A stretch of 63,127 nucleotides of DNA, counting the filler, from Conidiobolus incongruus B7586 (taxonomy: Eukaryota): NCBI GenBank assembly GCA_000697335.1. It is 9 parts of 9 records of this genome, joined end to end, with 100 filler letters (N's around TTAATTAATTAA, not from the genome) between each part and the next. Parts side by side here need not be neighbours in the genome. Positions count along the whole stretch, not along the records: positions 52,821 to 54,221 come from JNEM01006021.1; positions 54,322 to 55,809 come from JNEM01006022.1; positions 55,910 to 57,428 come from JNEM01006023.1; positions 57,529 to 58,973 come from JNEM01006024.1; positions 59,074 to 61,494 come from JNEM01006026.1; positions 61,595 to 63,127 come from JNEM01006032.1; 3 more parts are not named here. One strand, given 5' to 3'. Under the pieces are notes generated by a model. The model had not been told where the DNA came from and searched no databases. It worked only from the letters and a program-made list of their open reading frames with translations. Of this stretch, positions 12,472 to 63,127 are shown in pieces (within the stretch, counting starts at the first letter, position 1; the number at the start of each line of letters is the position of its first letter). The position numbers and the translations under genes are program-made.

Positions 12472-13467
12472 CTAATGATGAAGATTTAAGTGTTCTAGTT
12501 TAACAATATTACAATTGTCAACTTCGTAATGATAATCTTCCACTTCTACTTTAATCAAATTGCAAGACCAAATGCGACTCCGTAAGACACACCCCAAATC
12601 ACAATGCTTCTGAGGATCTTTCCATCCAGCTTTGTAGTAAGTCCAATCTTCTTCAATCTCAAACAGAGGATTGATTGAACCATTTGAGAGATCTGGGTGA
12701 TTCAATGGCGCCCATAACCAGTGTGAAATGGTTTGAATAGGATAATCAGGATGGATTTTAGGTGTATCTGATTTAGGCAATTGTAAAGAACTGGGAGGCG
12801 AGTCTGGAAGAGATAGAGGATTTGGCTGTATTATGGAAAAGTGGGGCAATTCTTGGTTATCAGCAACAGTGTTCGTCCATCCATTCCACGCACTCCATTT
12901 TTGTCTCTCTATTACTGAGACTTTAACAACTTCAGTTACTTTTGGAATTGTATCAGGTAGTGGTATTTCAAACAATTTGGATGCTTCAGGACATGGGGAT
13001 CCCAAAGTAACTTCAGAGTCTACATCTGATACATTGTCTTCTGAATTATTTTCAATGTAAAAAGTTTCAACAGGGTTTTGATAAACATTTTCCGAAGATT
13101 TAGGAGATTGATTATATGCCACCAAGTCGTATGATTCAATGAAAGATGCGACAAGCAAAGCTAATGGGGTATAGTTTGGGAAGTATTTTAAAGTCAAAAA
13201 AATTCCACCCCATTCAAATATGATTTTGGTTATATTGGCTGAGTTGGAAAAAGATAACAATAATATAAAAATCACTCCAAAATGCTGGTCTTTGGAAATT
13301 TGGTTCGATATGGTCCAATTAGAGAAACCTAAAGCATGATAATAGATAATAAAGAGAACTGAGCCATAAATGAACTGAATCAATAGACTATCTAAATTTT
13401 GAAACCGCGAGATTTGCTTTGTATTGACTTTGGGTGTATCAGTTTTTAAACTATCCTTTAAGCTCAT
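12472..13467 (-). CDS. Membrane protein with C-terminal DysF-like motifs (Pex23/Pex24/Pex30-family-like), paralog A, 331 aa
   Basis: N-terminal hydrophobic segments, then VIERQKWSAWNGWT and EDWTYYKAGWKDP...RSRIW, which resemble the DysF ENQR..W..GW and GW.Y....W..P......RRRRW motifs. Confidence 0.6.
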   Translation of the reverse strand: MSLKDSLKTDTPKVNTKQISRFQNLDSLLIQFIYGSVLFIIYYHALGFSNWTISNQISKDQHFGVIFILLLSFSNSANITKIIFEWGGIFLTLKYFPNYTPLALLVASFIESYDLVAYNQSPKSSENVYQNPVETFYIENNSEDNVSDVDSEVTLGSPCPEASKLFEIPLPDTIPKVTEVVKVSVIERQKWSAWNGWTNTVADNQELPHFSIIQPNPLSLPDSPPSSLQLPKSDTPKIHPDYPIQTISHWLWAPLNHPDLSNGSINPLFEIEEDWTYYKAGWKDPQKHCDLGCVLRSRIWSCNLIKVEVEDYHYEVDNCNIVKLEHLNLHH

Positions 13468-30832: not shown

Positions 30833-32601
<1,769 letters not shown>

Positions 32602-33079: not shown

Positions 33080-33563
33080 TTAATATGGAGTATATTGATT
33101 GAATTAATTTTAATATTATTCTTATAATTTTTAATTTTTTGTTGAAATATTATTTCTTTTTTTGATACCTCTTTAATCTCTCATAACCCAAAATATATTG
33201 AGCAATATTATAATTTTTTATATACAATTGATTCTTAACTTTATATATTCATCAAATGCATAATAAATAAACTGACAATTGAAATATCGGAAACAAATAT
33301 TATACTCGATTTGCTTTAAATTTTTTTGTTATTCAGTAACAAAATTATAATAGATGTTAATAAATAGTCAGATTTATAATGCTTTTAACTGTATATTGTG
33401 CAGAAATTAATGATTGAACACAAGTTTTCTGTATTAATTCTAAATGCTGTTGTAAGTATATGAGATATTGATATACAATATATTATCATTAATAATGCAA
33501 AGTTTAATATCAAAATTAAGTTATACTAAAAATTGAACTGAATTTATTTCAAATTTAATATAA

Positions 33564-34552: not shown

Positions 34553-34652
34553 NNNNNNNNNNNNNNNNNNNNNNNNNNNNNNNNNNNNNNNNNNNNTTAA
34601 TTAATTAANNNNNNNNNNNNNNNNNNNNNNNNNNNNNNNNNNNNNNNNNNNN
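34553..34652. other. Artificial contig linker
   Basis: 44N-TTAATTAATTAA-44N. Confidence 0.99.
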
Positions 34653-36078: not shown

Positions 36079-38766
36079 TTAAACTTGAATATATTTATTA
36101 TGAAATTAATATTAAATAATAAGAAACAAAAAGTGAGTATATTAGAATGAATATGAAGACGCTGCCTAAAAATAATCCAATCTGATATAAATGAAAGTAG
36201 GTTAGTTTCTTTTTAATAAAGGTAATAATTATTAAGAAACAGCTAGTCTATAAAACTCAATTAATAATCATCCATTAGTTTTCATTTGAGAATCACTGGA
36301 CGGATCGCAATAAACTATGGGATCTCAGCAGATTCGATTCTTTCATAGTGCATAAAAATTAATTAAATTTAATTATCCCAAGAAAATGGGGAATTGGATG
36401 ATTTCATATTGAATTTCAACTTCTCAAACTCCTTTGTCAATCACCTTCAAAATCTTGTCATTAAAATTATTTGAACCTTTCTATCCAATCAACTTCAGCC
36501 CTCCTCCCAATTTGGCAAATCTCCCAACTTGCTATGATGTAATCAATGTGACTCAATTTAAACATAAGTGATACAATAATTTAAAGCTCAATTCAAAATG
36601 CTCTATATTCCCTGACTGCAAAATTGCATTAGTTCCAATAAATTATAGCTTTATTCCGAAAATCAACTTGATTCTAGTGTATCTATCTGATATCCTAAGC
36701 ATTCCTTTACCTGTCTTGACACATATATAAATAAGTCAAAGCATCAGAGTTTAATAAGAAAACTCAACTGGTGGATCATATTAAGGAATAGTAAATCAAT
36801 TAAATGGATACAATTGAAGGATGATGCACTTGTGTACTTGAATATGTGAAAAACTTGATCGAGTGTAATAATCAATTTAATTTATTCTCTTATTAACTAT
36901 TACAGAATACTTTATCTTCTGAACAATAATAAAATCTTTGTTTAATTATTATAACTATAATTATTATTTTCAGTTTATCCAATCTCTAATAACACTATAA
37001 TTACTCTATTTCGATGCAAAAATTAAATTCAATATAAACAAATTCAGGTATCACTGTTTATAAAAATAATGTTCAACTATCAATTTATAGTCCGATAGCT
37101 TAGTTACTATCAAATAATGCCACCATTCCAACCATTATCCATCTTGTTCTAATAGAATATAATTGTATTCTCTCACAATCAGGACTATATTACCCAAATT
37201 ATCCAAATATCGACCATTAATCTTATCTTAATAACCAATATCAATTTATTATGCACATTTCCAATAAACCCTCAAAATTGTTAGAACCTGACTCAATTTG
37301 GTATATTCTAATACTAGGAAATATCTCAATTTTTTATCCATTTTTCTTTCCGGAACTCAAAGCTTGATGAAGGAAAAAGATTTGGGACTTGAGGATATTG
37401 TAATTCTTATATTTAGATACAATAGCTTTTTTAATGATTTAGATTATAATGATTAATATTATCAATTTTATACTTCAATCATAATATTTATTTTTAATAC
37501 CATAAATTTAAAAATTTCGAATATTCCGTTAATTATCATGATAAAAGATGACAAATATTTTCAAGTTATTAGTCGAAATTTATCAAGTATATTTTATTAA
37601 CCCAATAACTGATCAGATATTAGATAGGAATGTGATTATGAAACTTAATTTAATATAATGGCTAGTAATGAGTATTTGTGCCAAGCATATGACCCTTAAT
37701 TTAGCTATGTTTAAAATAAAAAGTTTAAACCTTGTTGATATATGTGGTTATGTTAAGTTTTCTTTTTGAATTACAAGGGATTTTTTATTTGAATTATTTC
37801 TCTATGCTAAACTTAAAGATTATATAAATTAATCTATAGAGAGAACAAATTAGAAATTTTCATCCTATAAAAATGTAAAATAGGTATTGAATTTTTTGCA
37901 ATCTGGTGCTTTAAAGTTCTGAAATATAAATAATAATCATTTTATTGCTTGATTTGATAATTCTAAATCTCAATCAGTAAAAGTATTTGATGGATTTCCA
38001 AAATTCTAAATTGTTACGAAAATTTTAATTTTGCATTATTTTAACATCCAAAAAATATTAATTGTTAGAAATTTCATAATCACCTCAATTAACAAATAGT
38101 TTGGAAATTGATATTAACTTTCTCTAAAACAATTATTTTTACAAGTTTTTGTCACAAAGCTTTAAATACAATAATCACTAATAAAAAAATAGTCTAAACT
38201 GATTTTTAAATTAATATTAATTTTATTTCACTGTTACCATTTTATTAATGATTTAAAATTTTTGAAATTTCAAATTGTTTTCTAATTCTAAATATTGATT
38301 TATATAACAGAAAAAGTTCAAATTACTAAAAAGAATTATTAATAGCATTATATTTTTAAATATTTTGGCAAGCACTAATCAAATCAAACAGTTTAATTTT
38401 GCATTGTATATTTAGTTATTATTTTATTGAAATAAGTTTGAATTAATTCAATATAATAATTAAAATTCAATAGTTTATTAGATATGTGAAATATTTAAAC
38501 ATTATCAACATATAGTTTATATTATTTCTATTATATTATCTAAAAAATTTGTTCGACTCGATATTCAATTTTTCATTAATATAAATTCAGAAATTCTCTT
38601 CATTGTAATTCATTATAAAACTAATTTATATTAATCACAATACAAGAAAATAAATTGTGACAATGATTAATCCCATAGTTTCAAATTCTTCCAATTATTA
38701 TAAATTTCGTGATTGAAAATTTCAAATTAACTGAACAAATTAATTCAATAATTTAACAAAATTGAG

Positions 38767-41700
38767 ATGAATAATTCTAAAGATCAAGTTGACGAATTAT
38801 CAAAATGTAAAAATTAAATAAAATTAAAACAACTATTGGCTAATTGAAATTTAGTAACTTCAACTGATAAATTTGTTGCAGTTTTGAAAACATTACCTCC
38901 AGTAATATCTTATTATCAAAGAATATAATTATTTTACTAATATTGTTAGTGTGACGAAGATACATTTAGGATATTCGAAAGACATAATAAAGTGATATAT
39001 ATTAGATACTGCGAAACTATATATGAATAACTTTTAATTAGGAGTTTTACAGTATGCATTTCGAAACTGCTAAATGGGCAAGTATGCTAATTTATAAAAC
39101 TACAAATGTTCTCAAATATTTGGGAGGTAAATATCTTCATAATTGTATGAATTTAGTGCTGATTTAAGCTTAGGCGATAGTCAGACAGGGATCCCTACCC
39201 TGAATTTAACACCTGCCATTGCTGAAAATTTTATGAGGGATCAAATTAAATTGAAGAAGATCGAATTGTGGGGGTCCACTTCGAAGAATGCGACACAGTT
39301 TGGTATTATTAAAAAGGCTAGTAGTTGTAATTTCATCTAAATATCATAAATCTAATATTCTGCCATTAGACTTCACCTGGTAATTATCAAGAGATGGAAG
39401 ATATGCTCTTTGGCGAAGTTGAAATCACATCGTCTCCAATTGTAATGGCTGTGAAATTACAGGCGACTGGAGGCAGCAAAGTATTCAACTTGCTTCAATT
39501 TAAATTTCAATCTAACTTTATTCCCATATAGAAAATTGGCGTCTGTTTCTGTGATTCTACCATGCAAAATCTCCAAGTTCTCGAATTTTTAGATAATGAC
39601 ATCTTTTCCAATTTCGAGTCTTTAATCATTCAAATTGGTGTTAATGAATGTGTGATCAATTTATCTGAAAAGAATTATGATCATATCAAATTGCAAGAGA
39701 TCTTAACAAGATGCGAAGTTATGATCACTAAAGCTCAATCAAGTAATTTATTGAATTCAATCAATAATTTATTGGCTAATCTTGTATAGACCAATTTGAT
39801 TCCAGTTCAATTTCTCAAGATTTGTGCAGATTACTAAAATCTTCCATCAATGTTGAAACTTTAACTGAACTGAATCTTCCTATCGCTATGGGATCCACCT
39901 CATGCTTAATTAGATATCTCCAGCTATTAGACTATCCCGACAATTTGAACAGTTATACCATTGCAACTTACAATCTATCCCAGTATGTTAGGTTAGACGG
40001 CTCTGCATTCAAAGCTTTGAATCTGATGCCAGGGCCCAAAGACTCCAACAAATATTCCAGCTTATTTGGATTGCTGAATCATTGCAAAACATCTCAAGGA
40101 TCTCGTTTATTGTCTCAGTGGCTTAAACAACCTCTCACAAATCCCCAAGACATACAAGAGCGCCTTGACCTAGTACAAATATTTCTAGAAGACTACCAAT
40201 TAAAGAATAGATTCCACAACGAATTACTCAAGTCAATCCCTGATCTCTGTAGAATTTGTAATAGGGTGAAACGAGGCAAAAGCCATTTACAAGATGTGAT
40301 TCGTTTATACCAAGTGGTCATAAAACTTCCAGAATTTATCCAAGCCCTCGATGAGAGTCAGTATTGTGAAAAATTAGATTCAGTGTACACTAAATTCTTG
40401 AAGGAATATACGGAATCACTCCAAAAGCTTCAAGAGATGGTTGAAACCACGGTTGATTTGAAGGCTGCCGACAGTCACCAATATAAGATCAAGCCTGAAT
40501 TTGACCCCAAGTTGAAGGAACTCGATCGCCAACTCGATCAAATTTTATCCGATATCACCCCATTACACGAGCAGATGGGTCGCAACCTGGAGCTAGAACT
40601 TGATAAAAAATTAAAGTTGGAGCGTTCCACTAATTATGGCTACTGCTTTCGTGTCACACGTACCGATGCAAGTCGTCTACGCGGCGATTCATCTATTATC
40701 GAACTCGCAGTCCAGAAGACGGGAACTTACTTCACCACCAGAAAATTGAAGCAACTCGCCGAGGAGTATGAAGATTTGACAGAAAACTACAAGAAGGTGC
40801 AATCAGAACTCGTTGCTGAAATCTTGAAAATTACTTCAACATACTGCTCCATCCTCGAATCGCTCAATGGACTAATCGCTCACTTGGATATTATTGTTAG
40901 TTTCGCACGAGCTGCTGAATCTGCTCCTTGTACTTATGTCAAACCAACTATTCTAACTGGCGACAATGACAAACTCCAACTGAGGGGGGCTAGACATCCC
41001 TGTCTGGAGCGTCAAGATGACGTCTCGTTCATTCCTAATGACCTTTATATGGAAAGAGACAAGAAAGAATTTTTGATTATTACTGGTCCCAATATGGGAG
41101 GCAAATCTACCTATATCCGTCAAACTGCTATCATCGTCCTTATGGCCCAAATTGGATCCTTCGTACCTTGTACGGAGGCCAACATCTGTATTTTCGACGG
41201 TATTTTGGCACGTGTTGGGGCTGGCGACAGTCAATTGAAAGGTATTTCAACGTTCATGGCAGAAATGCTAGAAACTGCTAACATTATCAAATCTGCTACG
41301 TCCAAAACACTTATTGTAATTGACGAATTGGGACGAGGTACCAGCACATACGATGGTTTCGGTCTTGCATGGTCCATCTCGGAGCATATTTCTACTCAAA
41401 TTAAAGCATTCTGCTTATTTGCTACTCATTTCCATGAACTCACAACACTTAAGGATAAGGTACCAACTGTCCACAACTTGCATGCTACAGCTCATGTGGA
41501 TTCTTTCAATCGCAAAATGGCTCTATTGTACGAAATTCGCGAAGGCGTCTGCGACCAAAGTTTTGGTATTCACGTAGCAGAAATTGCCAACTGTCCCAAC
41601 GCAGTGGTCAAATTGGCCAAGCGCAAGGTGGAACAGCTGGAAGCTCAAGAACAACATACTGATCAAAATCTCGAATTGAGTTCCGGTGAGATTGAAGAAG

Positions 41701-41831
41701 GATTAAGAAAGATGAAACAGTTTAAAGAATTTGTTAATAGGTCGGATAAGTCGCAATTAGATGAGTTAAAAACTAAAGCTAAGGAACTCTCACAGGATCC
41801 TTATATTAAAAAGATTTTGGAGCAATTCTAA
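38767..41831 (+). CDS. MSH2: DNA mismatch repair protein MSH2, intron-rich 5' part
   Basis: TGPNMGGKSTYIRQ Walker A, RVGAGDSQLKGISTFMAEMLE, DELGRGTSTYDGFGLAW and FATHFHELT. 5' exons carry SPGNYQEMEDMLF and EFLDNDIFSNFESLIIQIG. Confidence 0.96.
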
Positions 41832-44170: not shown

Positions 44171-45719
44171 TTAGTATCTGTTCCAAGCCATGCCACCACG
44201 GATACGGTTGTAGTCAGGAAGACATTCGACGGGACCGTAACCAACAACGGCAACTTCACGGTCCCAGAGGTTTTCACCAGCAACGCGACGAACATCGGCG
44301 GCAGTGATTCGATCGATCAAGGCAGCGGCTTCGGTGGGGGCAACACGCTTACCAGTGGTAACCAATTGGCGACCAATGTCTTCGGCGATGGGAGTGGTAC
44401 CATCTAAAGAGAAGAGGAGATTGGCTTTGAGTTGTTGCTTGGCACGTTCGACTTCACCTTCAGTAACGGAGGTGGTGAGTCTAGACCATTCACCGGTGAC
44501 ATTGTTGATCAAGTCATCAATGCAGTCCTTGTTTTCGGTGATGAGGTAAATACCCCATAAACCGGTATCAGAGTAAGAGGTATTGAAGGACATGAAGGAG
44601 TTAGCCAAGTTGTGCTTTTGAACGACTTGGGACAAACGGGAGGACATGAAGTTGTTGGAACCAAGAGAGCGATCCCAGTTACCAATCAAAGAGCTCATTA
44701 ATAACATGGTGTAGTAATCAGGGGAGTTCCAGCTGACACCTTCAACAGCGAGAGCAATGTGGGCAGCGGGGATATCATCATAGCGGATACGAACTTCAGA
44801 ACCAGTGAAGTTGGGCTTTTGCTTGTTGACAACAGAGGGGGTGCTGTTAGCTCCGGGAAGATTGGAGAAATGCTTGGAAGCCAATTCAACTAATTCTTCG
44901 TGGTTAACACTTCCGGAACCAACTAAAACAGTGTTATGAGGGTTGTAGTGTTGTTCAATGTAAGAGCGGAGATCTTGGGAATTGATAGATTTGATGTTTT
45001 CCTTAGGTCCCAAAATAGTACGGCCCAAAGCGTGGCCTTGGAAGGCAGTAGCGTGAAGGTGATCAAAAACAACTTCTTCGATCTTTTTTTCGACTTCGAT
45101 CTGTTCAGTCAAAATGACATCTCTTTCACGTTCAATAGCTTTGTGATCAAAAGTAGAGTTTTGAAGAATGTCAGCAAGGATATCAACAGATTTATCAACA
45201 TCAGATTTGAAACATTTGGCATAGTAGACAGTTTGTTCTCGAGAAGTGTAAGCGTTAAGATGACCACCCATATTTTCAATAGCTAATTCTAAATCTAATT
45301 GGCTACGAGTTTTGGTACCCTATATAAAAGATTAGCTATGAAATTAAAGCTCCTGACATTAATATATACCTTGAAGGCCATATGTTCTAAAAAGTGAGCA
45401 GTACCGTTATTTTGGGCGTTTTCAGCACGGCTACCAGCATCGATCCAAACACCAACGGTGGCAGTTTGGGCTTCAGGATGAGTTTCAGTAGCAACGGTCA
45501 AACCTGAAGGAAGAACAGTGACCTTGGTGGAAGGTAAGGAGTAAGAAGATTGAGCATGGGAGGCCAGAGAAGCGGTGGCATTTCTCCAAATGGGTTGTAA
45601 ATTCTAAATGAAAATATTAATCAATTGGTTCGATTCTAAAGACTAGCTGAAGAAACTGGAAGGCGCAATTATACCTTATTGAATTTGGAGATATTTCTAG
45701 ATAAAAGTCTGGAGGCCAT
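44171..45719 (-). CDS. MAS1: Mitochondrial processing peptidase beta subunit (M16), 3 exons
   Basis: Presequence [39 protein letters not shown] (HxxEH), [13 protein letters not shown] and SYSDTGLWG. Confidence 0.95.
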
Positions 45720-49104: not shown

Positions 49105-51011
49105 ATGGCTCAAAACTCTTTAAACATCGAAGAATTAACATACTCAGAGAAAATTGATCTTATTAGAAAATATTGGCAATTCGCAGCAATTTGTCAATTT
49201 TTTTTAACTTTTCAAGCTGCATATAACTTTTCTGAACCCTTTGAAACTGAAGTAATTAATTATTATGATATAATAATTATTGTATTTAATTTTATTTAGC
49301 AATTGGAAACTGCTTTGGCAAAAAATGATAAAAGTTATATAGAACCAATTTTATTAAATTTGATGAAAAACTTACCTGGTCAAAGATTTATTCAGTAATG
49401 AAAACTGATTAAACTTATCATTAAAATGCAGATTATTAATTGATTATCAATATTATAGTTTGCCAGTGTTGGAGGTCCAAATGAAAAAGGAATGCCAAAA
49501 ACGTGGATTTTCTAGCCCTTTTTTAGAAGAAAATCACCCTGGCTTCTTTAGTTTACAAATTCCTGATCAGGTAATAATTAAGTTATTATTCAATAATATG
49601 GATTATTAAGTTTTAATTCTAGATTAAACTAATTCATGCTTTGACAGAATGGCAGATGGAAGATTTTGAGAGGGTGAGAGCCAAAGTAGATGAAGAAGAT
49701 GATTGTGATGAATGGGTATATACTCTATAATTATTGGCTTCGATTTTTGTTCATTTAATAGCATTTTAATTTATTATTAGAGAATTGAATCTATAGGGCG
49801 AGATAAAAAATATAACACTTATTGGCTATTTGATGGTATTTAGTGTGATTGCTAAACTATAAAACTAAGCATCTAATCAATGATTCTTCAGATAATCGAC
49901 TTTATAAGCAAAAATATCAAGCACCTAAAAAATCCAAATCTGTCAAAAAATCTAAAAAGAATAATGGTCAAGAGCAGGTCTCCTCGGTTCCAACAGATTG
50001 GGAATTAGTAATACATCAATGAATTTATTATTTTCAAAGTATTTAATAATTTCTCTACAGGTTTGTTCTACTGCTCATGAATGGGAACAATTTCCTAGAC
50101 AATTCGAAAATAGTAGAAATTTAGATGAGCAATATTTGAGAGATTTCTTAATTGAACACGTACTTCCCAAAGTTTTACCCGCTATCAAATCGAAAGAAAG
50201 ACAAAAGAAGAAAGAGGAACTAAATATGACTTTCCAACCCAAGAGGTCATCAAGACTACAAGCTAAAGAGCTGTACAGGAAAGAGCTTGAAGAACAGCAA
50301 AGAAAGATGGAATTACTAGAAGCTATGGAAGCTAGAGAGAAGAACTTCAAGGATTCTAAATCCGAAGCAGTTATTCAGAATATTCCAAATTTAAATACAA
50401 GAGAAATGAGAGCAAAGCGCAGAGCTTTACTTAATGAAGGTCGTTTGGAAGAAGTGTTACAGCTGGAGCGTGATGGGGTTATGAGATCTGTGTTCAATGT
50501 ATCTGACGCCCAAGCTAAAATAAAGCCTAAAGAGGAAGAGACTACAAATGAAAACATTGAAAATGGCGATCATGCGAATGAAGATTCTGAAGAAGAATGG
50601 TATTTTAAATGTGTTTGTGGTGCTGAAGGCAAAAACCGTGATGATGGCCTAATGATGATAGCGTGTGAGCGTTGCGGGATTTGGCAACATGTTCAATGCC
50701 AAGATTTCTACGCTGATAATCCTCAAAATCTTGATTTATCATCAATATTCTTTTTGTGTCAAGATTGTTTAATGAATAAGCCATCTGGTGCGGCATTGGC
50801 CACCAATTTATCCAACCAATTGGATGAATCTTCTGAACGTACTACCTCCGATAATAACACGCCATCAAACCGTACTGACATTACTCGAGAATCCTCTCAA
50901 TCTGTAGCTCAAACTTTAGGCTATCCACTTGCTGCTCTCAACTTAAATGGAACTGATCCTAACTCACCCATGAGTTTAGATGTAAGATCTATTGATTCTA
51001 ATCCAGAATAA
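49105..51011 (+). CDS. Chromatin protein with DDT/WHIM-like N-terminus and C-terminal PHD finger (RSF1/CECR2-like), multi-exon
   Basis: WQFAAICQFF, RIESIGRDKKYNTYWLFDDNRLY and VCSTAHEWEQF. PHD finger FKCVCG...MIACERCGIWQHVQC...FLCQDC. Confidence 0.8.
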
Positions 51012-52256
51012 AATATAATATTATTTTAATAATTTTTAGTGTCTAATTACAATGAAATCTCTCTTATATCCAAACATTTACTCTAGATACTGTAGCAACA
51101 GACTATCCCCTTTTTCTGTATAAATTAATATGACTTTAATGTATTATTTTAACCAATCCAAGTTCATACTTTATTGAAATAATATATTTTCAACTTTTTA
51201 TTAAATCGAAAAATGTCTCGAATTAGAGATTTTAATTAGTTAACAAACATTGATGTTTTTTGAAATTTTTTTCTATGATATTTTGAATTTGTAATTTTAT
51301 ATATTAAGGACACTGTAAAACGATTAGATATTAATCAATTTATTTTATTTGCATTGTATATTTTGAAACAAAGTATCGATTATTAGAAAAACCTTTATCA
51401 TATTTTAACAATATCGAAGACAATATTATTTTATATTGCGAATTATATTATAGCACAGTTATAAACAAATCATTTATTCTTTCGATATTAATGCTTAATG
51501 ACTTGAATATAATAAAAATTAACTTTAACTGGTTTAAGTAGAAATTAAGGATAGTTATTTTCATTTGTTAGTATTCATTATGTTTACTTATATAATAAAA
51601 AATAGAGCTGCATAATATTATATAATTATTAATTGAATAAAATACTTACAAATTTCGAAATATAGCAACTTTAACTAAAATATTAGACCTTGGATGAAAC
51701 ATTTAAACTGATGCTAACTATTAAGATAATTAATATTTCAAAATAAATAATAATTATTTTTTGAATTGAATATACATAATTTTTCAATATTTGAAAACTA
51801 AGTCAAAAATATTAATTATTTTTTCAAGATAATAATGATTTGTATAAATTTTCAATCAATTTTTCATTAATAAATTATAGTTGGAATTTAGAAAACTTAG
51901 AGTTTTAAATGGATATATATATAGGAAATACCTTGACCTTATATATGAACAAAATTAATATTCAAATCATAAAATTTTTTATTCACAATTTTTTTGTTGA
52001 AATATTACCAATATAATACATTCAAAATTAGAATTTACCAATATTAATAATAATTATTGAATTTTAATCAATTAATATTTGAAGATAAAAAAACAATATA
52101 ATTAATATTATTGATATTAAAATTAATGATAATTACAATTATATATAATTATTACTATAGAATTAAAGAAATAGGAAATTTTTTAATTTCTGATTTTTCA
52201 AATATATTATTAGTTTCAAATAAAAAAATATATACAAAACAAATAGTTTTGAATTA

Positions 52257-52283
52257 GATATATATATATATATATATATATAT
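52257..52283. repeat. (TA)n microsatellite; similar tracts at ~22306-22327 and ~26526-26540, and (AAT)n at ~30288-30313
   Basis: Direct reading of the sequence. Confidence 0.85.
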
Positions 52284-52720
52284 AATAAATTTTTTGATTA
52301 AAAAAATAATTTTTTAAAATTAGTTGTTTAATTTAATTATGTTTAAATTAAATAGTAACTATCAAAAGTTTTTTATTTTAGTATTAATAAAACTTAACTA
52401 TAAACCCTTTAAAATCATTTAAAATTTATAAACAATTTTTAATAATAAAGTATTATCTAAATTAACAATTTATTGCTAGGTAAATTACTTTAAAGTTAAA
52501 AAAAACTACTTAAAACTTGTTAAAATTTAAAAGATTAATTTTAACTATTATTCTTTTAATTGTTAATAAAGTAAAAAAATATATTAAAAAGTACCTTTTT
52601 ATTTTAATTAAAGAATTATTAAAATACTTTAATATTAGTTACATAAGTATATTATATATATTAAAGTTTAAATTAAAATTAATTAATAAAAATATAAAAT
52701 AAATACTTTATAATTTAACT

Positions 52721-52820: not shown

Positions 52821-54221
52821 CAAAAACTATATATTATTAAATTATAATCAATTTAATGCTGTTATAAATATAATAATAAAAGATTACTGATATAATATAA
52901 AGGAAGACCTAATATAGAGATAGTGTGGCATAAAATATAGTAATATATTATGGGATATAATGTGAATATATAAACAAAGTTTAATTAAGCTTTAAATTAG
53001 GATAAGTCATTGATATATTAAAATTTATATTAGGTAGTATTAATACACTGTAATATTGATAGAACATAGTTTCAATTTTAAAAATAATGAAAAAAATAAA
53101 AAATAATAAGAATAAAGAAAAAAAACCTAATATATTAAATAGTTTAATACTTTTTATATAATTAATTTAACTATAAAAGTATAATTTAATTATATAATTT
53201 ATAATTAATTAAATTATAAAGAAATATATAAAAGAGTTTAAAAAACTAGTTTTTTAATATTTTTTTAATAAATTTCTTAAAAGAAACATACTCCTTAAAT
53301 TTTTACAAATAAGTATAATAAGTTAAGATATTCTTAATGTTTTTTAAGGTTTTTTATATAATTTATTTAATAAGATAACCTATTTAATTTATATAAAAAT
53401 AAAGCTTATTCTTAATAGATTTAAATTTAATTATATAATAAATATAATATTTTTCTTCTCTATCTTAAATAATAATTTAATCTAGTTTTAAAGCTTTTAA
53501 TTAATTAAGAAATATATTAAAATCTTTAAAATTAGGTTTGATTTTAGATATATAAAAGGTAAAGCTAATCTTTACAATTAAAAATAATTCTAAAATAATA
53601 TTTTCAAAATTTAAATCATCAGATTAAATCTTATAGGTATTATAATATAATAATAAATATTTTGGATTTAAACTAAATTTAAGTAAGATAAATTTAAAAG
53701 CAAATTATTCTAAGTATATAAACATATTAGTTTTATATTTAAAAAGATTTTTAAATAACTTAAAATCTTATTATTGATAATCTTTTAATTTTCTTTTAAG
53801 TTAAATTTAATAAGGGAGTTAATCTATTTAATATGAAATTAAAATTTAATAATATCTAAAGATAAGTTGATTTAAAGTTTTAAAACAATTATTAAATTAA
53901 GATATTTATTATAATTGATAAAATAAAAATTAAAACTTATTAATTTAATCAATAAAAATATCAAATAAATATTAAAGTTGGAAGATATAGGCATTTTAAT
54001 TTAAATGATTAATGTTAATATAAGTTTTAATCATTTACTTTAAGGTTTTAATAGTTTTTTCAATAAGTTTATTAATTTAATAGTGATTAATAGTAAACAT
54101 AACTAGATTAATCTTAAAGGAAAAAGTTAGTAACTTATAGAATTAAAAGTTAAATTATATATTTCTATTAAATACAATAGTTTATAAAATTTTATAATAG
54201 GTAAAAATATTAGGGAATAAT
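52821..54221 (-). mobile_element. Hypermutated Ty3/Gypsy LTR-retrotransposon relic (integrase core, GPF/Y module, probable chromodomain)
   Basis: Minus frame from 54220 reads TAT TAT AAA ATT TTA TAA ACT ATT GTA TTT AAT AGA AAT ATA TAA TTT, which back-transitions to HHGIPQTIVSDRDTQF. This is followed by MSTANHxQTDGLAERTI with D-35-E spacing and, near 53535-53565, SPTFHVSKIKP. Confidence 0.8.
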
Positions 54222-54321
54222 NNNNNNNNNNNNNNNNNNNNNNNNNNNNNNNNNNNNNNNNNNNNTTAATTAATTAANNNNNNNNNNNNNNNNNNNNNNN
54301 NNNNNNNNNNNNNNNNNNNNN

Positions 54322-55804
54322 TTATTTAATTAAAATCTATTATACTTATTAATAATATATAATATTAAATGATAATATTTAGTTATTAATTGGTTAAAAT
54401 ATAAATCTTTAAATTTTACCTAATATAAGTTATAAATTTATAGGTTTTTGATAATAGAACAAATTAAAACTTAGTATATCTATCTTTAATTTTTCTAACT
54501 TCTTAAAGTTTATAAGGTATAGAATCAATTAACTTCTTATATTAAAAAAGGTTAATTTTGTTTTCTATTTTTTAAACATATTTTTAAAGATAATTTGAAT
54601 TTTTTATTAAAAGGAAAACTTTAATAACTTTTTTTAACTATTCCTAAAGATATTTAATTAGGTTAAAATTAAAAAATTAAAGAAGCTACTTTATAATTAT
54701 TATCTTGTTATTTTTAAGTTATTTAGTAATAGAAGCTGTAGTATAAAAAAAGGTATTAATTTACTAAAAAATAATATTAGATTTGTTTAACCTATACTAT
54801 TTAATATTTTTTTTAATTTATTATTTAAAATATTTTAATATATCTTAATATTAATTCCTTTATTAACTTTATAAAAATATCTTATACTTAAAGATAATAT
54901 ATATCCTTAAATAATAATTAACCTATTATTATATTTTTAGATAAAATTAACATAATAGTTATAAAGTAATTCTATATCTTTTCTGAAATATCTAGTTTTT
55001 TTTCAAATTTACTAAAATATATTTTTGTTTTTTTAAATTAAATAACCTTACTCTAATTAGTTTTAATTTAATATTAATAGTGATATTTAAACTCTTGCTT
55101 AACTTTATAATAAGATTTCTTTAGTTGGGGGTGTTATTTCTTAAAATATAAGTGATATCTATATTAATATAAATTATATATAATAATATTAGTATTAACT
55201 AATATTCTTATATAATTTTATAATTCTGGTTATATTTCTATAATAATATTATATTTACCTATATTAATTAACCTATAGATATATTTCTTATTATATTTAT
55301 TTATAATCTTCACACACTTAAGTTTAAGTTTAAATATGTTTTTATTACTATTATTAATAACTTTTACTATAGTAAACTAGTTAAAATTAATAATTCTAGC
55401 AATATTATAAGTTAATTTATTTTTTTTATAAAGTTAATTAATACACAAGTAAATTTTTTTAGAGAGGGATTTAAGTATAATGATATTAATAAAGAAATTA
55501 GTATATTTATAAAATATTATATAAAATAATAACAAAGAGAGAAGAAAGATATAGTTATATATTGTTAAATATATCCTTTTATCTCAAAAACCTGTAAATT
55601 TATAACTCATCTTAATTAAATATTAGTGGTTAATTTTTTTGCTAATAGTTTACTAAATATATCTAAATATATTTATCTATTATCAAATAATATATCTTAA
55701 TTATATATTATAGTTTGAAATAATTTAATATATATAATTGTTTTAGTTATTAATTAATATATATATATTTTTGATTTTAAAACTTACTTTTATAAGTTAG
55801 TATA
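54322..55804 (-). mobile_element. Hypermutated Tc1/mariner DD34E transposon, copy A (transposase relic 54464-55478; left TIR ~55767-55802 then TA)
   Basis: Colinear with 61595-63127 and the reverse complement of 55910-57355. Differences are overwhelmingly C/T and G/A. Confidence 0.9.
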
Positions 55805-55909
55805 ATAATNNNNNNNNNNNNNNNNNNNNNNNNNNNNNNNNNNNNNNNNNNNNTTAATTAATTAANNNNNNNNNNNNNNNNNNNNNNNNNNNNNNNNNNN
55901 NNNNNNNNN

Positions 55910-57355
55910 AATAAATATATTTAAATATATATAGTAAACTATTAGCAAAAATATTAACCCTTAATATTTAACTAAAGTGAGTTATAAATTTACAAGTTTT
56001 TAAGATAAAGGGATATATTTAACAATATATAACCATATTTTTTTTCTCTCTTTGTTATTATTATATATTATATTTTATAAATATACTAAATTTTTTTATT
56101 AATATTATTATACCTAAATCCCTCTCTAAAAAAATCTATTTGTATATTAATTAACTTTATAAAAAAAATAAATTAACTTGTGATATTGTTAGAATTACTA
56201 GTGTTAGCTAGTTTACTATAGTTAAAATTGTTAAGAATAACAATAAAGAAATATTTAAACTTAAACTTAAGCATGATAAAATTATAGATAAATATAATAA
56301 GAAGTATATTTATAAGTTAGTTAATATAGGTAAATATAATACTACTCTAGAAATACAACAGGAACTATAAAACTATATAGGAATATTAGTTAGCATTAAT
56401 ATTATTATATGTGTTTTATATTAATATAGATACCATTTATACTTTAAAACAAACACTTTTAATTAAAGAAATCCCATTATAAAATTAAATAAGAAGTTAA
56501 ATGTCATTATTAATATTGAATTAAAACTAATTAGAGTAAGGTTATTTAGTTTAATAAAACAAAAATATATTTTAGTAGATTTAATAAAAAACTAGATGCT
56601 TTAAAAAAAATACAAAATTACTTTGTGACTATCATGTTAATTTTACCCAAAAGTATAATAATAGGTTAATTATTATTTAAGAATATATATTGTTTTTAGG
56701 TATAAGGTATTTTTATAAAGTTAATAAAGGAATTAATATTGAGATATACTAAAATATTTTAAACAATGAATTAAAATAAACCATTGAATAATATAGGTTA
56801 AATAAATCTAATATTATTTTCTAGTAAGATAATACCTTTTGTTATACTATAGCTTTTACTACCAAATAGCTTAAAAATAACAAGATAATAGTTATAAAGT
56901 GGTTTTTTTAATCTTTTAACTTTAATTTAATTAAATACCTTTAAGATTAATTAAAAAAAACTATTAAAGTTTTCCCTATAGCTAAAAATTTAAATCAACT
57001 TTAAAAATATATTTAAGAAATATAGAATAAGATTAACCTTTTTTAGTATAAGAGGTTAATTGATTCTATATCCTATAAACTTAAAGAAGTTAGAAAAACT
57101 AAAGATAGATACACTATGTTTTAATTTTTTTTATTACCAAAAAACTATAAATTTATAACTCACCCTAGGTAAAATTTAAAGGTTTATATTTTAGTCAATT
57201 AATAGCTAAATATCATTATTTAATGATATATATAATTAATAAATATAATAGATTTTAATTATTTAATTTAGATTTATTTCATTAAATATTAATTAAGCTA
57301 TTAGTAAAAATATAAGTGTTTTTGATTTTATAACTCACTTTTGCAGGTTAGTGTA
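55910..57355 (+). mobile_element. Hypermutated Tc1/mariner DD34E transposon, copy B (transposase relic 56110-57124; right TIR ~57316-57353 then TA)
   Basis: Back-transition gives DWSKVIWSDETKI...KHGGGSIIIWGC...FQQDNAPCHT...KWPPQSPDLNPIEHLW...DSMP.RLKEVRKTKGGYT, with 34 residues between the second D and the E. The end reads ...taactcacttttgcaggttagtg|TA. Confidence 0.92.
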
Positions 57356-58613
57356 TAAAAGTTTTTAAAACTATTATAAATAGTTAATTTATTTTTAAAA
57401 ATTCTAAAAAGGTAATTTAATATGTTAANNNNNNNNNNNNNNNNNNNNNNNNNNNNNNNNNNNNNNNNNNNNTTAATTAATTAANNNNNNNNNNNNNNNN
57501 NNNNNNNNNNNNNNNNNNNNNNNNNNNNCTGTAGAGTAATATTACAAATTAATGGATCAAAAATTTGGTGGAAAAATCATTATATATTATAGGAATGATG
57601 TAGGCACTTGAAAGTAATAATTCTGTTACATATGTTTATTCAATAATTGGATTTACAAATAAATATCCTGATTGTTCTTACAATCATTGTGTTTACTATA
57701 AATGGTACCAACAATTATATTAGAATATCTAAATTTCTTTCAGGTTACTGATTTTGTGTAAATTTAGAATATTTTTTGATACTGTACAAATTAGAAAGAT
57801 CAGTCGTTTTCTTAATAAGTCTTTGAATATGTATATTAGACAATCAACTACTGCATTTGATACATCATCAAAAAATTAAGAAAATGATATATTAAAGCCA
57901 ACCTTGATACATATAAAATTTGTCCTATATGCTTTTCAAAATAGAACTTACTTTCATTTGGATATATTCAATTAATTTTATTTTAGGCTTAGTTTATAAT
58001 TGGAACAATACTAATCAAAAAATATAATTAATAACAAATGTTTTCTAATAGGTTTAGATTAAACCATTTTTAGGGGATAACCTTTTTCCATTAGCTTCTA
58101 AAATTAGTTATAACAATTTTAAGCCAGATCAAAATATTCCAAACTTCTTCAATTGAAATATTTTCTTAGGTATATATTGATATATTTTAGAGTATTGAAT
58201 TTTAAATTTCATGCTTATCAATCATTTTAATTAATATATACCATGTAATAAAATTTATAACGTTTGAATATAATATAATAGTTGCTTTTACAAATTCTTG
58301 ATAATTGAATCATGGCTGTTATAATTTTATTCTGGTTTGAAAACAAAAAAAAACAAGATTTTAGGTCAAAATTCATGGAAAAAGTTGTCCTCTCAAAAAT
58401 GGTTTTTATTATTAAAATAAAATTTGTGATAATTTTTTTCTAAAACAAGTAATATTTAGATGTATACATCATTATAAATATATCCAGTATATAATTTGAA
58501 AAATACTATTAAAGATGCATTTCAAATATGAATATCATAATAAAAACTTCAATATATACATGTTATTAATTTGTAAAATATAATATTAAATATTTATTAA
58601 ATAATACTAAAAT

Positions 58614-58973
58614 TTAGCGATAGAATTTCTTGTTTATCAATCGCAATAATAAATTAACATTCAGTTTGACTTCACCATCAAACAGAGCCATGATACGAAC
58701 ATTGTCAAATTGGTACTGGAGTAGTTCTTCTAGTTCGAGCTCTGTTGTTGCTCCAGGCAAAGGTACTTTCAAATAATGCGCTGTGATTTGAAATTTACCT
58801 ATTTCCTTGCAGCTAATGATCACATCAATATGAGGGTACTGTTTGGGAGTAAATTCATTCATTGACACTAATACTCCTTTGTTGTGCAAGCGTTCAGCAG
58901 TGTATAAGAATGATCCAAATTTAGCAGAATGACCCATATTGGAAAGCTGCTTGCACTGGAAGTAATTCTTGGT
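58614..58973 (-). CDS. IQGAP (Iqg1/Rng2-like) RasGAP C-terminal fragment, 5' truncated
   Basis: KFGSFLYTAERLHNKGVL...LEELLQYQFDNV..MALFDGEVKLNVNLLLRLINKKFY is the typical IQGAP C-terminus. Confidence 0.88.
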   Translation of the reverse strand, partial: TKNYFQCKQLSNMGHSAKFGSFLYTAERLHNKGVLVSMNEFTPKQYPHIDVIISCKEIGKFQITAHYLKVPLPGATTELELEELLQYQFDNVRIMALFDGEVKLNVNLLLRLINKKFYR

Positions 58974-59074
58974 NNNNNNNNNNNNNNNNNNNNNNNNNNN
59001 NNNNNNNNNNNNNNNNNTTAATTAATTAANNNNNNNNNNNNNNNNNNNNNNNNNNNNNNNNNNNNNNNNNNNNG

Positions 59075-61494
59075 GAAGCCTACTCTGAGTTAAGCAGACT
59101 ATTAAGTTATTACTATAAAACCTCGGGCGATGGAGCTGACATGAAGATTTTCCCACTTATAGCCAATACTTTGGAATTGCTCAAGGCTGATAAATTCGAT
59201 GGTAGCGCCCCTAATATAAGAGCTGAATTTGAAACTAAGTTCCATAAGCTGGACGAAGCTTTGAAGAAACTTGAAGAGACTGCTCCTAAAGCTCAGTTAT
59301 ACGAACACCCTCAGCTTACTACCAATTTCGAAAGTGACCTCAACAAATTGATTGAATCATTTAAAACAGTAACCAAAGACAACATAGATGAAGCCAGGAA
59401 ATTTATAAGACTCTTCTTAGTAACTTATGTAGGAGATCCAAATGGCAACTTCAATGTCCATATTGCGCCAGGAGCGGCAGAAATTACTAAGTTTGTATCT
59501 AGTGATCATTTCGATTTCCATAACCATGATGATTTGAACAAATTGTCGAATATGATTACCGAATTATACAAACTCTGGTCTCAAGGCTCGGATCAGAGTG
59601 CAAATTACTATCATGCACCCCGAGTGAGTGGGAACAGGGAAATAGATGCCAATGCACTTATCGAGTCATTTGCTAATGTAGATCGTGACAATAAGCAAGA
59701 TGCGATCAAGGCACTTGAAGCTTATCTCAAGCATCACTACAGCACTGATAAAAATGGCAGCTACAATCTTAAAATCTTCAAACTTGTTAGCGATTTGACC
59801 AATCTAGTGACAAAACCCGGATTTGATCTCAGTTCCAAGGAGAACCAAGCACAAATTTCATTATATTTCAGCCAATTGAATTTCCTTAAGGATGAATTGG
59901 ACAAGACTGGAAGCATCGAAAAAACTTGTAATTTACCCAAGATATCTGGTGATAAATCACAGGATAAAAAGGCTATTTCAGAACAGTTCCCCAAATTAGA
60001 CATTTCATGTAAGAAAGAAGCTGCCGAATTTATCGATAGTTTTGTCAATAATTACTATCATAATGACCAAAATACAATTGATTTCACCCTGATTCCTCTT
60101 ATTAGCAAGATAATGAGTAATATTGAAAGCAGTTCCTTTGATTTCCACAATCGTGAATCCATATTTGAAATTCTGGTCAAGTTGGACCAACTTGAGGATG
60201 CATTCAAGCAGGCCAGTAAGCATCACCAGAATGAACAACCATTCAATCCACCGCCAATCTCATATGATAGGAAGGAATTTATTCGAGAATTACTCGAATC
60301 TTTGAGACATGTCACGCCTGAGACCAAAGTTAGTGCCATCAATTATTTGATTAGCTTTACTAGACAATACTACAGTAGAAATGGAGGTGGTTTGGATCAT
60401 CATTATTTCGACATTATAAATGAACTCACCGAGTTACTAAAAGCGAAAGATTTCGATTTTAGCAATCCCATTTCTATATCCAAGATCAAAGAGATCTTCG
60501 ACAAATTAGAAGCGGTTGGAGAGTATTACAGCTCTGAAACAGAGGAGCATATCGAATACAAAGGTGTTGAAATTACCGGTGACATTCAATCCGATTTCGT
60601 CAGATTTATCGAAAGTTTGTACAATGTGAGCGAAGCTAATCGTCCTGAGATCAATAACTTTTTAATGCACTTTGTAGAATATTACTTTATTCCACCCGGT
60701 GAAAGGGATTACCCCAAAGAAATTTTCTCAATAGTTGTCGAACTGAAAAACCTCATCACTAGCCACGATTTCAACTATGTTACTAGAGAAAATCTTGAAA
60801 ATTTAAGACTGGTCTTCGAGAAGTTGATCATGACAAAAGAGGCTTTGGATCATCCTACAGAGGCTCCCAAATACTTCCTCCCTCCAACTCTGACCGGCAA
60901 TAAGGTAGAAGATGAGAAGCTCATGTTCGAATCACTTAGAGATGTGACTCTGTTCAACAAGCAACAGGCTGTTGAATTCATTAACTTTTACCTTAAGGTG
61001 CATTATGCTGACTCTAATGGAAACTTCCTCCCTAGTATCGCCAAACTTGTAAATGACTTATTATCCATGATCAGTGTACCTAGTTTTGATTTAGCTGATA
61101 CTAATGGAGCTAAAATGATCAGGTTATATTTGACTAAGATCGAGCAAGAGCTCAAGAGGATTCAAGACCAGAAAGCTAATCGACCTGGTTACAAAGAGCC
61201 CGAGCTTTCTGATAATCGACAGATCAATATGCAGCTCGTGATTGCCAGTTTCAAAACGGTCACCCCAGATACAAAGATAAAGGCGGTGAACTTTGTTAAC
61301 AAATATTTAACGGTGGTATATGGTGAACCCAACGGTTATTTCGATTTGGATCTCATCAAATATGTAAATGATGTGTTCGCTGTGGTTTCAGACCCTAACT
61401 TCGAATTCAATAGAGATTCAGATGTCCTTCGATTCCAAAAGCTCCTGCTCAAATTGGATGCCGAGTATGACAGAGTAAAAGCGCCAACGCCCAA
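59075..61494 (+). CDS. Large ~105-aa tandem helical-repeat protein, internal fragment truncated at both ends
   Basis: The whole 2.4-kb contig is one intronless open frame with about 7.5 diverged repeats starting PQLTTN, PRVSGN, PKISGD, PPISYD, VEITGD, PTLTGN and PELSDN. Confidence 0.9.
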
Positions 61495-61594
61495 NNNNNN
61501 NNNNNNNNNNNNNNNNNNNNNNNNNNNNNNNNNNNNNNTTAATTAATTAANNNNNNNNNNNNNNNNNNNNNNNNNNNNNNNNNNNNNNNNNNNN

Positions 61595-63127
61595 TATAAG
61601 TTATAAAATCAAAAACACTTATATTTTTACTAATAACTTGATTAATATTTAATAAAATAAACTTAAATTAAATAATTAAAATCTATTATATTTATTAATA
61701 ATATATATTATTATATAATGATATTTAGCTATTAATTGGTTAAAATATAAATACTTAAATTTTACCTAAGGTGAATCATAAATTTGTAGGTTTTTAGTGA
61801 TAAAAAAAAATTAAAACTTAGTGTATTTACCTTTAGCTTTTCTAACTTCTTTAAGTTTATAGGGTATAGAATCAATTAACTTCTTATATTAAAAATAGTT
61901 AATCTTGTTCTATACTTCTTAAATATATTTTTAAAGTTCATCTAAATTTTTTACTAGGGGGAAAGCTTTAATAACTTTTTTTAACTAATCTTAAAGATAT
62001 TTAATTAAGTTTAAGTTAAAAAATTAAAGAAGCTACTTTATAACTATTATCTTGTTATTTTTAAGCTATTTGGTAATAGAAGCTATAATATAATAAAAGG
62101 TATTATCTTACTAGAAAATAACATTAGATTTGTTTAACCTATATTATTCAATAGTTTTTTTCAATTTATTATTTAAAATACTTTAGTATATTTTAATATT
62201 AATTCCCCTATTAACTTTATAAAGATATTTTACACTTAAAAACAATATATATCCTTAAATAATAATTAACCTATTATTATACTTTTAGGTAAAATTAACA
62301 TGATAGTTATAAAATAGTTCTACATTTTTTTTAAAGTATCTAGCTTTTTTATTAAATTTACTAAAGTATATTTTTGTTTTATTAGATTAAATAACTTTAA
62401 TTAGTTTTAGTTTAATATTAATAATGACATTTAAACTCCCACCTAGTTTTATAATAGGATTTCTTTAATTAGGGGTGTTTTTTCTTAAAGTGTAAGTAGT
62501 ATCTATGTTAATATAAAATATATATAATAGTATTAGTGTTAACTAATATTCTTATATAGTTTTATAGTTTTTGTTGTATTTCTACAATAGTATTATATTT
62601 GCCTATATTAACTAACCTACAGATATACTTCTCATCATATTTATTTATAATTCTAACACACTTAAGTTTAAGTTTAAATGTGTTTTTATTGTTATTTTTA
62701 ACAACCCTAACTATAATAAACTAGCTAACACTAGTAATTCTAGCAATATCACAAGTTGATTTACTTTCTTTATAAAGTTAATTAATACACAAATAAATTT
62801 TTTTAGAGAGGGATTTAAGTATAATAATACTAATAAAAAAAATTTAATATATTTGTAAAATATTATATAAAATAATAATAAAGAGAGAAAAAAGATATAG
62901 TTATATATTGTTAAATATATCCCTTTATCTTAAAAACCCACAAATTTATAACTCACCTTAGTTAAATATTAAAGGTTAATATTTTTGCTAATAGTTTACT
63001 AAATATATCTAAATATATTTATTTATAGTTAAATAATATACTTTAATTATATATTATAATTTCAAGTAAATTAATATATACAATTGTTTTAGTTATTAAT
63101 TAAAATATATATATTTTTGATTTTATG
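61595..63127 (-). mobile_element. Hypermutated Tc1/mariner DD34E transposon, copy C (transposase relic 61811-62822), nearly full length
   Basis: Starts inside the right TIR (ttataaaatcaaaaacac) and ends inside the left TIR (tttttgattttatg). Colinear with copies A and B. Confidence 0.9.

What the first reader, a model, noticed from the sequence alone, without database searches (positions are those of the whole stretch)
52821..63127. RIP-like C>T hypermutation of two unrelated transposon classes in an apparently early-diverging fungus
Seen in sequence: three Tc1 copies and a Gypsy integrase relic keep their reading frames almost without indels, yet most C and G have become T and A on both strands (TGG>TAG/TAA, CAA>TAA, CCT>TTT, CAT GGT GGT>TAT AAT AAT). 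The copies differ from each other at independent C/T and G/A positions. By eye I found no CpG, few CpA/TpG, abundant TpA, and surviving C mostly in CpT or CpC. Established knowledge: this is the hallmark of repeat-induced point mutation (RID/DIM-2 dependent), described in Ascomycota with RIP-like cases in some Basidiomycota. Inference: if the host is a zoopagomycete or mucoromycete, as the genes suggest, this would be an undescribed repeat-targeted mutational defence, either true RIP or very heavy non-CpG 5mC deamination.
Basis: partly seen in the sequence, partly recalled or inferred. Interest (0 to 1): 0.92.

Follow-up and report, generated by a model that had tools for sequence, protein, structure and literature searches.

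The report
RIP-like transposon mutation in Conidiobolus fungus
In a Conidiobolus fungus, far outside the group known for repeat-induced point mutation, transposon copies have lost about two-thirds of their conserved C:G pairs to C-to-T changes on both strands, above all at CA sites, while host genes are spared, which likely reflects a transposon-targeted mutator.

Summary
Three Tc1 copies and a Ty3/Gypsy integrase relic hold 0 CpG in 5,941 bases (shuffle mean 32). At sites invariant in four intact Tc1 relatives, 438 of 652 C/G site-copies read C>T or G>A, against 3 of 557 reverse changes, equally on both strands. The order is CpA 96%, CpT 57%, direct CpC 19%; no CpG survives. Host DNA of similar GC lacks the signature. 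The host is Entomophthoromycotina, 92.7% identical in MPP-beta to Conidiobolus coronatus, not an ascomycete. The same sample holds the Tc1 family at very high depth, and a repeat with the same signature ends a host-gene contig, so contamination is unlikely. It works like RIP, but RIP membership is unproven: RID, timing and homology sensing could not be tested, and a linked 309-bp perfect host duplication is unmutated. The best reading is a transposon-targeted, methyltransferase-linked CpA mutator (0.6). 'Undescribed' is overstated: a 2024 paper reported RIP indices in other Entomophthorales. What is new is polarised, context-resolved evidence in Conidiobolus, against a 2025 survey that found such signatures only in ascomycetes.

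The parts
52821..54221 (-). Ty3/Gypsy integrase relic; frame read from 54220 downwards; all 22 stops in the first 240 codons are TAA; GC 0.131, no CpG
   Evidence: Gapless 87-residue match to Ty3-G Gag-Pol residues 1219-1305, PDB 7q5b, E 1.3e-5; codons; composition
54322..55809 (-). Tc1 copy, most decayed (GC 0.133); transposase relic about 55484-54467, 25 stops, two 1-bp deletions; one terminal repeat near 55585-55804
55910..57428 (+). Tc1 copy (GC 0.160); transposase relic about 56104-57121, 24 stops, two 1-bp deletions; terminal repeat ends near 57355, followed by AT-rich flank
61595..63127 (-). Tc1 copy (GC 0.164); transposase relic about 62828-61814, 24 stops, one 5-bp deletion; imperfect inverted repeats of about 200 bp at both ends
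   Evidence: Pfam HTH_Tnp_Tc3_2 E 4.4e-4, below the curated cut-off; intact relative P0142 at 107.6 bits with DDE_3 and HTH_Tnp_Tc3_2; inverted repeats; 30,423 contigs of run X1 laid on it
52150..52720 (.).
57529..58973 (-). Host DNA, not hypermutated: end of a RasGAP_C gene and its flank (internal control)
59074..61494 (+). Host ORF fragment of 806 codons, GC 0.382, 63 CpG, not hypermutated (internal control)
12472..12780 (-). 309-bp perfect direct repeat, second copy 15186-15494, in a host gene pair 2.7 kb apart; keeps 4 CpG and 47 CpA/TpG (control for homology sensing)
44174..45280 (-). MPP-beta exon used to place the host
   Evidence: 342 of 369 residues identical to C. coronatus P0312; tree
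39780..41828 (+). MSH2 exon used to exclude Ascomycota

Best explanation
Tc1 copies in this Conidiobolus genome have lost about two thirds of their conserved C:G pairs by C>T changes on both strands, above all at CpA, and the likely cause is a transposon-targeted mutator tied to a cytosine methyltransferase. Shown: direction, both strands, the order CpA > CpT > CpC with complete CpG loss, copy-specific mutation, and sparing of host DNA; the Gypsy relic and a third repeat share the composition. Inferred: repeats are marked as silent chromatin, a DIM-2-type or lineage-specific methyltransferase acts on their cytosines in CpA and CpT as well as CpG, and these are fixed as T over many rounds. It would act after insertion and too slowly to stop the family from amplifying first. 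It would not need RID or a dikaryotic premeiotic stage, as with the Dim2 mitotic mutator of Zymoseptoria. A weak hint suggests two phases: CpA mutation earlier, CpG decay continuing later.
For: Direction: 161 of 204 conserved codons are reachable in all three copies by C>T/G>A alone, against a mean of 33 and a maximum of 50 in 1,000 shuffles; the reverse direction explains 62, of which 56 are unchanged. DNA level: C>T 181 of 266, G>A 257 of 386, A>G 0 of 291, T>C 3 of 266; held-out intact relatives show no such bias. Context: native CpA/TpG to TpA 102 of 106, CpT 29 of 51, direct CpC 4 of 21; private transversions 8 of 1,212 site-copies. Specificity: 35 host windows of 300 bp at GC 0.174 have CpA O/E 1.19 and CpG 0.66, against 0.57 and 0 in the relics; the signature changes at the repeat edge near 52150 (Fisher p 0.00095). 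Family-wide: 368 of 400 variable places on the Tc1 copy are transitions (run X1). Precedent: Dim2-dependent mitotic CA>TA mutation (PMC8016269); Dim-2 reported in early-diverging fungi (PMC7862722); PF00145 genes in all fungi of the Entomophthorales set (PMC11105155); RID/Masc1 not found outside Dikarya apart from one bacterial-like chytrid enzyme (PMC5751038).
Against: No enzyme, methylation map or timing was observed; no genome is held for this window. The CpA-first order is exactly that of RIP. The Zymoseptoria mutator spares CG, whereas here no CpG survives. Zoopagomycota are described as poor in 5mC (PMC11258239). Context counts pool three copies over the same sites, so they are not independent; the CpR-over-CpY contrast also holds per copy (p 4e-8 to 4e-6). 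Ancestral states come from relatives, not from an intact source copy. The spared host duplication may be recent or an assembly artefact. The two-phase hint rests on 7 strict CpG sites.
Confidence: 0.6

Rival explanations
1. Canonical RIP: homology pairing of any duplicated DNA before meiosis, with a RID-type enzyme mutating CpA.
For: CpA preference, both strands, near saturation, and a change of signature at the repeat edge. Different copies resolve the same site differently: 8 of 20 shared stop positions differ in codon, and one CpG became TG in two copies and CA in the third. [quoted passage not shown]
Against: A 309-bp perfect duplication 2.7 kb apart and a 153-bp tandem array with 609 bp of perfect self-match are unmutated, whereas 155-220 bp of closely positioned homology triggers RIP in Neurospora (PMC4858203). 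The RID-like proteins are only 12-14% identical to RID and their authors decline to call them homologues. The family reached very high depth. These fungi lack the ascomycete dikaryotic stage (own knowledge).
Confidence: 0.2
2. Passive hydrolytic deamination of 5mC in repeats methylated in all contexts over a long time, with no dedicated mutator.
For: CpG is entirely gone. Phycomyces methylates transposons in CG and CHH (PMC11258239).
Against: CpA is hit at least as hard as CpG: native CpA went to TpA in 102 of 106 cases, CpG-derived CpA/TpG in only 11 of 18; in the relaxed set 153 of 169 against 45 of 63. Constant-rate models predicted 79-95% for the CpG-derived class. The CpA hazard of 3.3 compares with 0.007 private transversions per site.
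Confidence: 0.12
3. A free-standing cytidine deaminase (APOBEC/AID-like) edits transposon DNA.
For: Dense C>T with few other changes.
Against: Preference lies 3' of the C (CpR 0.88 against CpY 0.51), with little 5' effect (0.63 against 0.73) and equal strands (0.69 against 0.70), in a DNA transposon. Such deaminases are recalled to prefer 5' contexts and single strands (own knowledge).
Confidence: 0.04
4. Neutral AT-biased decay in a low-GC genome, or contigs from an ascomycete contaminant.
For: The large host contigs are only 27-33% GC. All runs that hold the host stretch come from one sample. The four small contigs are not physically joined to host genes.
Against: Host DNA of the same GC lacks the signature; the host duplicate pair has Ti/Tv 1.05; reverse transitions are 3 of 557. 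Runs found with host genes hold the Tc1 family at summed depth 8,914-152,438 against 12-86 on unique flank (X1), and a repeat with the same signature continues a host-gene contig.
Confidence: 0.04

Closest known systems
Repeat-induced point mutation (RIP) of Neurospora and other Pezizomycotina
   Same: C:G to T:A on both strands, restricted to repeats, CpA dominant with CpT second (PMC2621366).
   Different: Host outside Dikarya; CpG fully lost; short linked host duplications unmutated; RID, premeiotic timing and homology sensing not shown.
Dim2-dependent mitotic CA>TA mutator of Zymoseptoria tritici (PMC8016269)
   Same: CpA-preferring C>T in transposons.
   Different: There more than 98% of C>T changes fall at CA and CG is spared; here CpT (57%) and CpG (all) are also hit, and the enzyme is unidentified.
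RIP-index signal in Zoophthora radicans and other Entomophthorales (PMC11105155)
   Same: Same order of fungi; positive composite RIP index in part of the genome.
   Different: That result was a window index with no alignment, direction or context; N. thromboides and C. coronatus were not in the RIP analysis.
TpCpG hypermutation of Pucciniomycotina transposons (PMC3318451)
   Same: C>T excess in transposons outside Ascomycota.
   Different: Its target is TpCpG; here CpA is the top target and 5' context is weak.
Aspergillus nidulans MATE repeats (dual CpG and CpA preference)
   Same: Both CpG and CpA are lost (PMC2621366).
   Different: There CpG exceeds CpA; here CpA is at least as strong, and the host is not an ascomycete.

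Membership tests
RIP (Neurospora type) | C:G to T:A transitions on both strands of repeats | tested here: met
   438 of 652 forward, 3 of 557 reverse; strands 0.69 and 0.70
RIP (Neurospora type) | CpA as preferred target | tested here: met
   CpA 102 of 106, CpT 29 of 51, direct CpC 4 of 21
RIP (Neurospora type) | Restricted to repeated DNA | tested here: met
   Host windows of matched GC lack it; it changes at the repeat edge; one window only
RIP (Neurospora type) | Copies mutated independently after duplication | tested here: met
   All six partial sharing patterns occur (7-15 sites each) and one CpG is resolved in opposite ways; 108 sites mutated in all three could be saturation or shared history
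RIP (Neurospora type) | Any duplication is recognised by homology, genes included | tested here: inconclusive
   A 309-bp linked perfect duplication and a 153-bp array are unmutated, but they may be recent or assembly artefacts
RIP (Neurospora type) | Requires RID/Masc1 | not testable with these tools
   No genome held
RIP (Neurospora type) | Acts between fertilisation and karyogamy | not testable with these tools
   Needs parent-progeny sequencing
Dim2 mitotic mutator (Zymoseptoria type) | CA mutated while CG is spared | tested here: not met
   0 CpG left in 5,941 bp; intact relatives L001-L004 carry 46-86 CpG per ORF
Dim2 mitotic mutator (Zymoseptoria type) | Dim2-dependent and active in mitosis | not testable with these tools
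   No proteome or evolution lines
CpG or TpCpG deamination (basidiomycete type) | Excess confined to CpG | tested here: not met
   CpA 96%, CpT 57%
Tc1 transposons | HTH plus DDE transposase between terminal inverted repeats | tested here: met
   Colinear over 338 residues with P0142, which carries DDE_3 and HTH_Tnp_Tc3_2; inverted repeats of about 200 bp, 72% identical
Ty3/Gypsy retrotransposons | Integrase related to Ty3 | tested here: met
   7q5b E 1.3e-5 over 87 residues; Pfam found nothing in the six frames; LTRs and RT are not on this contig

The most novel reading that the evidence does not exclude
Entomophthoralean fungi have a dedicated repeat-recognising CpA mutator that is either an independent, RID-free invention or proof that RIP predates the split of Zoopagomycota from Dikarya, and it works without a dikaryotic premeiotic stage.
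Probability: 0.3. Interest if true: 0.9.

Novelty: new variant of a known kind. Interest (0 to 1): 0.62.

Why it matters
RIP-type mutation is treated as an ascomycete trait: a 2025 survey of 1,239 genomes found ascomycetes unique in it (PMC12543289), and the one report in Entomophthorales rests on an index that AT-rich DNA can inflate. Polarised, context-resolved evidence in Conidiobolus makes the question directly testable in a culturable genus with small genomes (about 40-44 Mb for C. coronatus). It bears on when repeat-directed mutation arose, whether it needs RID or meiosis, and why sister lineages have gigabase genomes. It also warns that heavily mutated transposons on short contigs escape profile searches and scaffold-size filters.

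Tried and rejected
Whole-genome search for RID, DIM-2, DNMT1/5 or deaminases: no genome held. Pfam on the raw relics: 1 weak hit among 10 translations. Word-based homologue search for the Gypsy relic: 135 candidates, none scored, so its direction of change has no count. No RNA holder listed. Comparing left and right terminal repeats as a mutation clock: differences are mostly A/T transversions (Ti/Tv 0.53), so it was dropped. Context from a three-copy consensus alone is biased, because sites mutated in all copies are invisible; it was replaced by outgroup analyses. Context of the top listed variants: the direction agrees but the rows are a selected few (32 of 40 shown, 381 not shown; 18 of 40 shown, 146 not shown), so it was not used. 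Whether intact copies remain could not be seen, as they would likely fall below the 80% laying threshold. The careful MSH2 tree did not finish; the quick tree is cited. Bewick et al. 2019 is not held. Earlier findings of this scan: none.
Full report
Layout. The window is nine contigs joined by N spacers. No whole genome is held, so the work rests on the window, on public contigs of one sample (runs X1-X4) and on homologues.

Composition. The four relics have GC 0.131-0.164, CpA O/E 0.47-0.61, CpT O/E 1.39-1.54 and composite RIP index +0.44 to +0.81; the five other contigs score -0.40 to -0.73. They hold 0 CpG in 5,941 bp, against a mean of 32.2 and a minimum of 14 in 2,000 shuffles. Low GC alone does not explain this: 35 host windows of 300 bp with GC under 0.20 (mean 0.174) have CpA O/E 1.19, CpG 0.66 and CpT 0.84, against 0.57, 0 and 1.44 in the relics.

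Identity. A profile of the broken DDE region found 215 proteins at E up to 0.001; the best, P0142 (338 aa, 107.6 bits), carries DDE_3 and HTH_Tnp_Tc3_2 and is colinear with the copies. Each copy has 24-25 stops and one or two small deletions. The ends are imperfect inverted repeats of about 200 bp. The fourth contig matches the Ty3-G integrase without gaps over 87 residues (E 1.3e-5). All 22 stops in its first 240 codons are TAA. By eye many mismatches to Ty3 fit C>T/G>A, but this was not counted.

Direction. At 204 positions where two intact relatives agree, 89-96 codons per copy are explained by C>T/G>A alone and 3-5 by the reverse alone. In 161 of 204 all three copies are reachable from the conserved residue by C>T/G>A; shuffling residues gives a mean of 33 and a maximum of 50. 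A metagenome scan gave 60 loci; the four closest (L001-L004, 59-65% to P0142, GC 46-57%) served as DNA outgroup, three more were used for composition only, and 53 were not used. At 404 sites invariant in the four, the copies show C>T 181 of 266, G>A 257 of 386, A>G 0 of 291, T>C 3 of 266, and 20 transversions among the 652 C/G site-copies; held-out intact relatives show no such bias.

Context. At residue-forced sites CpR is mutated in 199 of 225 and CpY in 122 of 238, significant in each copy separately; strands are equal (0.69, 0.70) and the 5' effect is weak (0.63, 0.73). With DNA outgroups, native CpA/TpG became TpA in 102 of 106 (transversion states set aside), CpT 29 of 51, direct CpC 4 of 21, and CpC after its neighbour mutated 53 of 96. 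Private transversions are 8 in 1,212 site-copies. CpG-derived CpA/TpG went on to TpA less often (11 of 18; relaxed set 45 of 63 against 153 of 169), below the 79-95% of constant-rate models. This hints that CpA mutation came earlier and CpG decay continued, but it rests on 7 strict sites. The process is therefore not CpG decay alone.

Independence. Pairwise differences are similar (144, 144 and 137 transitions). All six partial sharing patterns occur, 8 of 20 shared stop positions differ in codon, and one CpG was resolved to TG in two copies and CA in the third. The 108 sites mutated in all three fit saturation, but shared history is not excluded.

Host and linkage. MPP-beta is 342 of 369 identical to C. 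coronatus and 281 of 369 to Neoconidiobolus thromboides, and groups with Neoconidiobolus and Massospora at SH-aLRT 99 (22 rows). MSH2 lies outside the 14-row ascomycete clade (support 100, quick tree, 23 rows chosen from 120 listed hits, long-branch warning). The host is a close relative of C. coronatus; the species was not determined. Runs found with host genes lay 30,397-39,626 contigs on one Tc1 copy; in X1, 368 of 400 variable places are transitions. Summed depth is 8,914-152,438 there against 12-86 on unique flank; the tool warns that this is no copy number. The contig carrying MSH2 and MPP-beta ends in a repeat (52150-52720) with the same signature and depth 12,661-131,267; 150 of 184 variable places on 50200-52720 are transitions, host allelic differences included. 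One public contig spans 50984-52179 without differences, reaching only about 30 bases into the repeat, which is borderline as a bridge. All four runs are one sample and may be the window's source, so they are not independent support.

Controls against homology sensing. A host gene pair 2.7 kb apart shares 309 bp perfectly, with 4 CpG and 47 CpA/TpG, and has Ti/Tv 1.05 over 929 aligned bases; a 153-bp array has 609 bp of perfect self-match. In Neurospora 155-220 bp of closely positioned homology suffices (PMC4858203, passages). These repeats may be recent or assembly artefacts, so the test is inconclusive.

Mechanism. Shown: direction, strands, context, specificity. Inferred: a methyltransferase-linked mutator acting on silenced transposons (0.6), ahead of canonical RIP (0.2), passive deamination (0.12), a free deaminase (0.04) and neutral decay or contamination (0.04). 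The precedent is the Dim2 mitotic CA mutator (PMC8016269, passages), which however spares CG. RID/Masc1 was found only in Dikarya apart from one bacterial-like chytrid enzyme (PMC5751038, passages and supplement rows). Dim-2 is reported in early-diverging fungi (PMC7862722, passages; PMC13297926, passages). Zoopagomycota are called 5mC-poor (PMC11258239, passages), which counts against.

Prior art. PMC11105155 (passages and supplement rows) reports RIP indices of 24.2% in Z. radicans and 2.4-5.7% in three relatives, with stated caveats, and did not include Conidiobolus in that analysis. PMC12543289 (abstract, passages, two result sections, 12 of 19 supplements) finds ascomycetes unique, used scaffolds over 50 kb, and lists C. 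coronatus with 6.4% repeats. bioRxiv 2025.06.16.659975 (passages; supplements not seen and may bear on this) finds RIP-proficient taxa almost only in ascomycetes. PMC12387763 (passages) does not mention RIP in C. coronatus. PMC3318451 and PMC2621366 (passages) give the basidiomycete and Aspergillus contexts. Searches listed no alignment-based report for Conidiobolus; subscription papers, including Bewick 2019, were not searchable.

Verdict. A real, strong, RIP-like mutational signature in a zoopagomycete. It works like RIP; membership is unproven. New variant of a known kind, interest 0.62.

Noticed in passing
window 50306-50544 and 50583-50867: Host coding DNA is present in the sample as two versions at similar depth, differing at 13 of 239 and 21 of 285 bases; the 20 listed differences are 15 transitions in both directions and 5 transversions. 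This suggests a hybrid, diploid or duplicated genome whose duplicates are not hypermutated.
   Followed up: partly
window 52150-52720: A second very high-copy AT-rich repeat family with a sharp left end near 52148-52150 joined to many different flanks; class unknown.
   Followed up: partly
window 24867-25784: A 153-bp tandem array encoding a His/Asp/Val-rich repeat protein, with 609 bp of perfect self-match and CpG retained; may be collapsed by the assembler.
   Followed up: partly
window 2-1027 and 59075-61492: Two helical-looking repeat proteins of apparently similar style; the second has no Pfam family above cut-off, the first was not scanned and looks secreted by eye.
   Followed up: no
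L005:138-1127, L007:477-1457, L010:590-1549: Intact Tc1 ORFs from metagenomes with 5, 9 and 0 CpG at 46-49% GC but normal CpA: CpG-only depletion in other hosts, a useful contrast to the window's pattern.
   Followed up: no
window 54995 and 56592: Two Tc1 copies share a 1-bp deletion in an A-run although they are no closer to each other than to the third copy; recurrent slippage or recombination between copies.
   Followed up: partly
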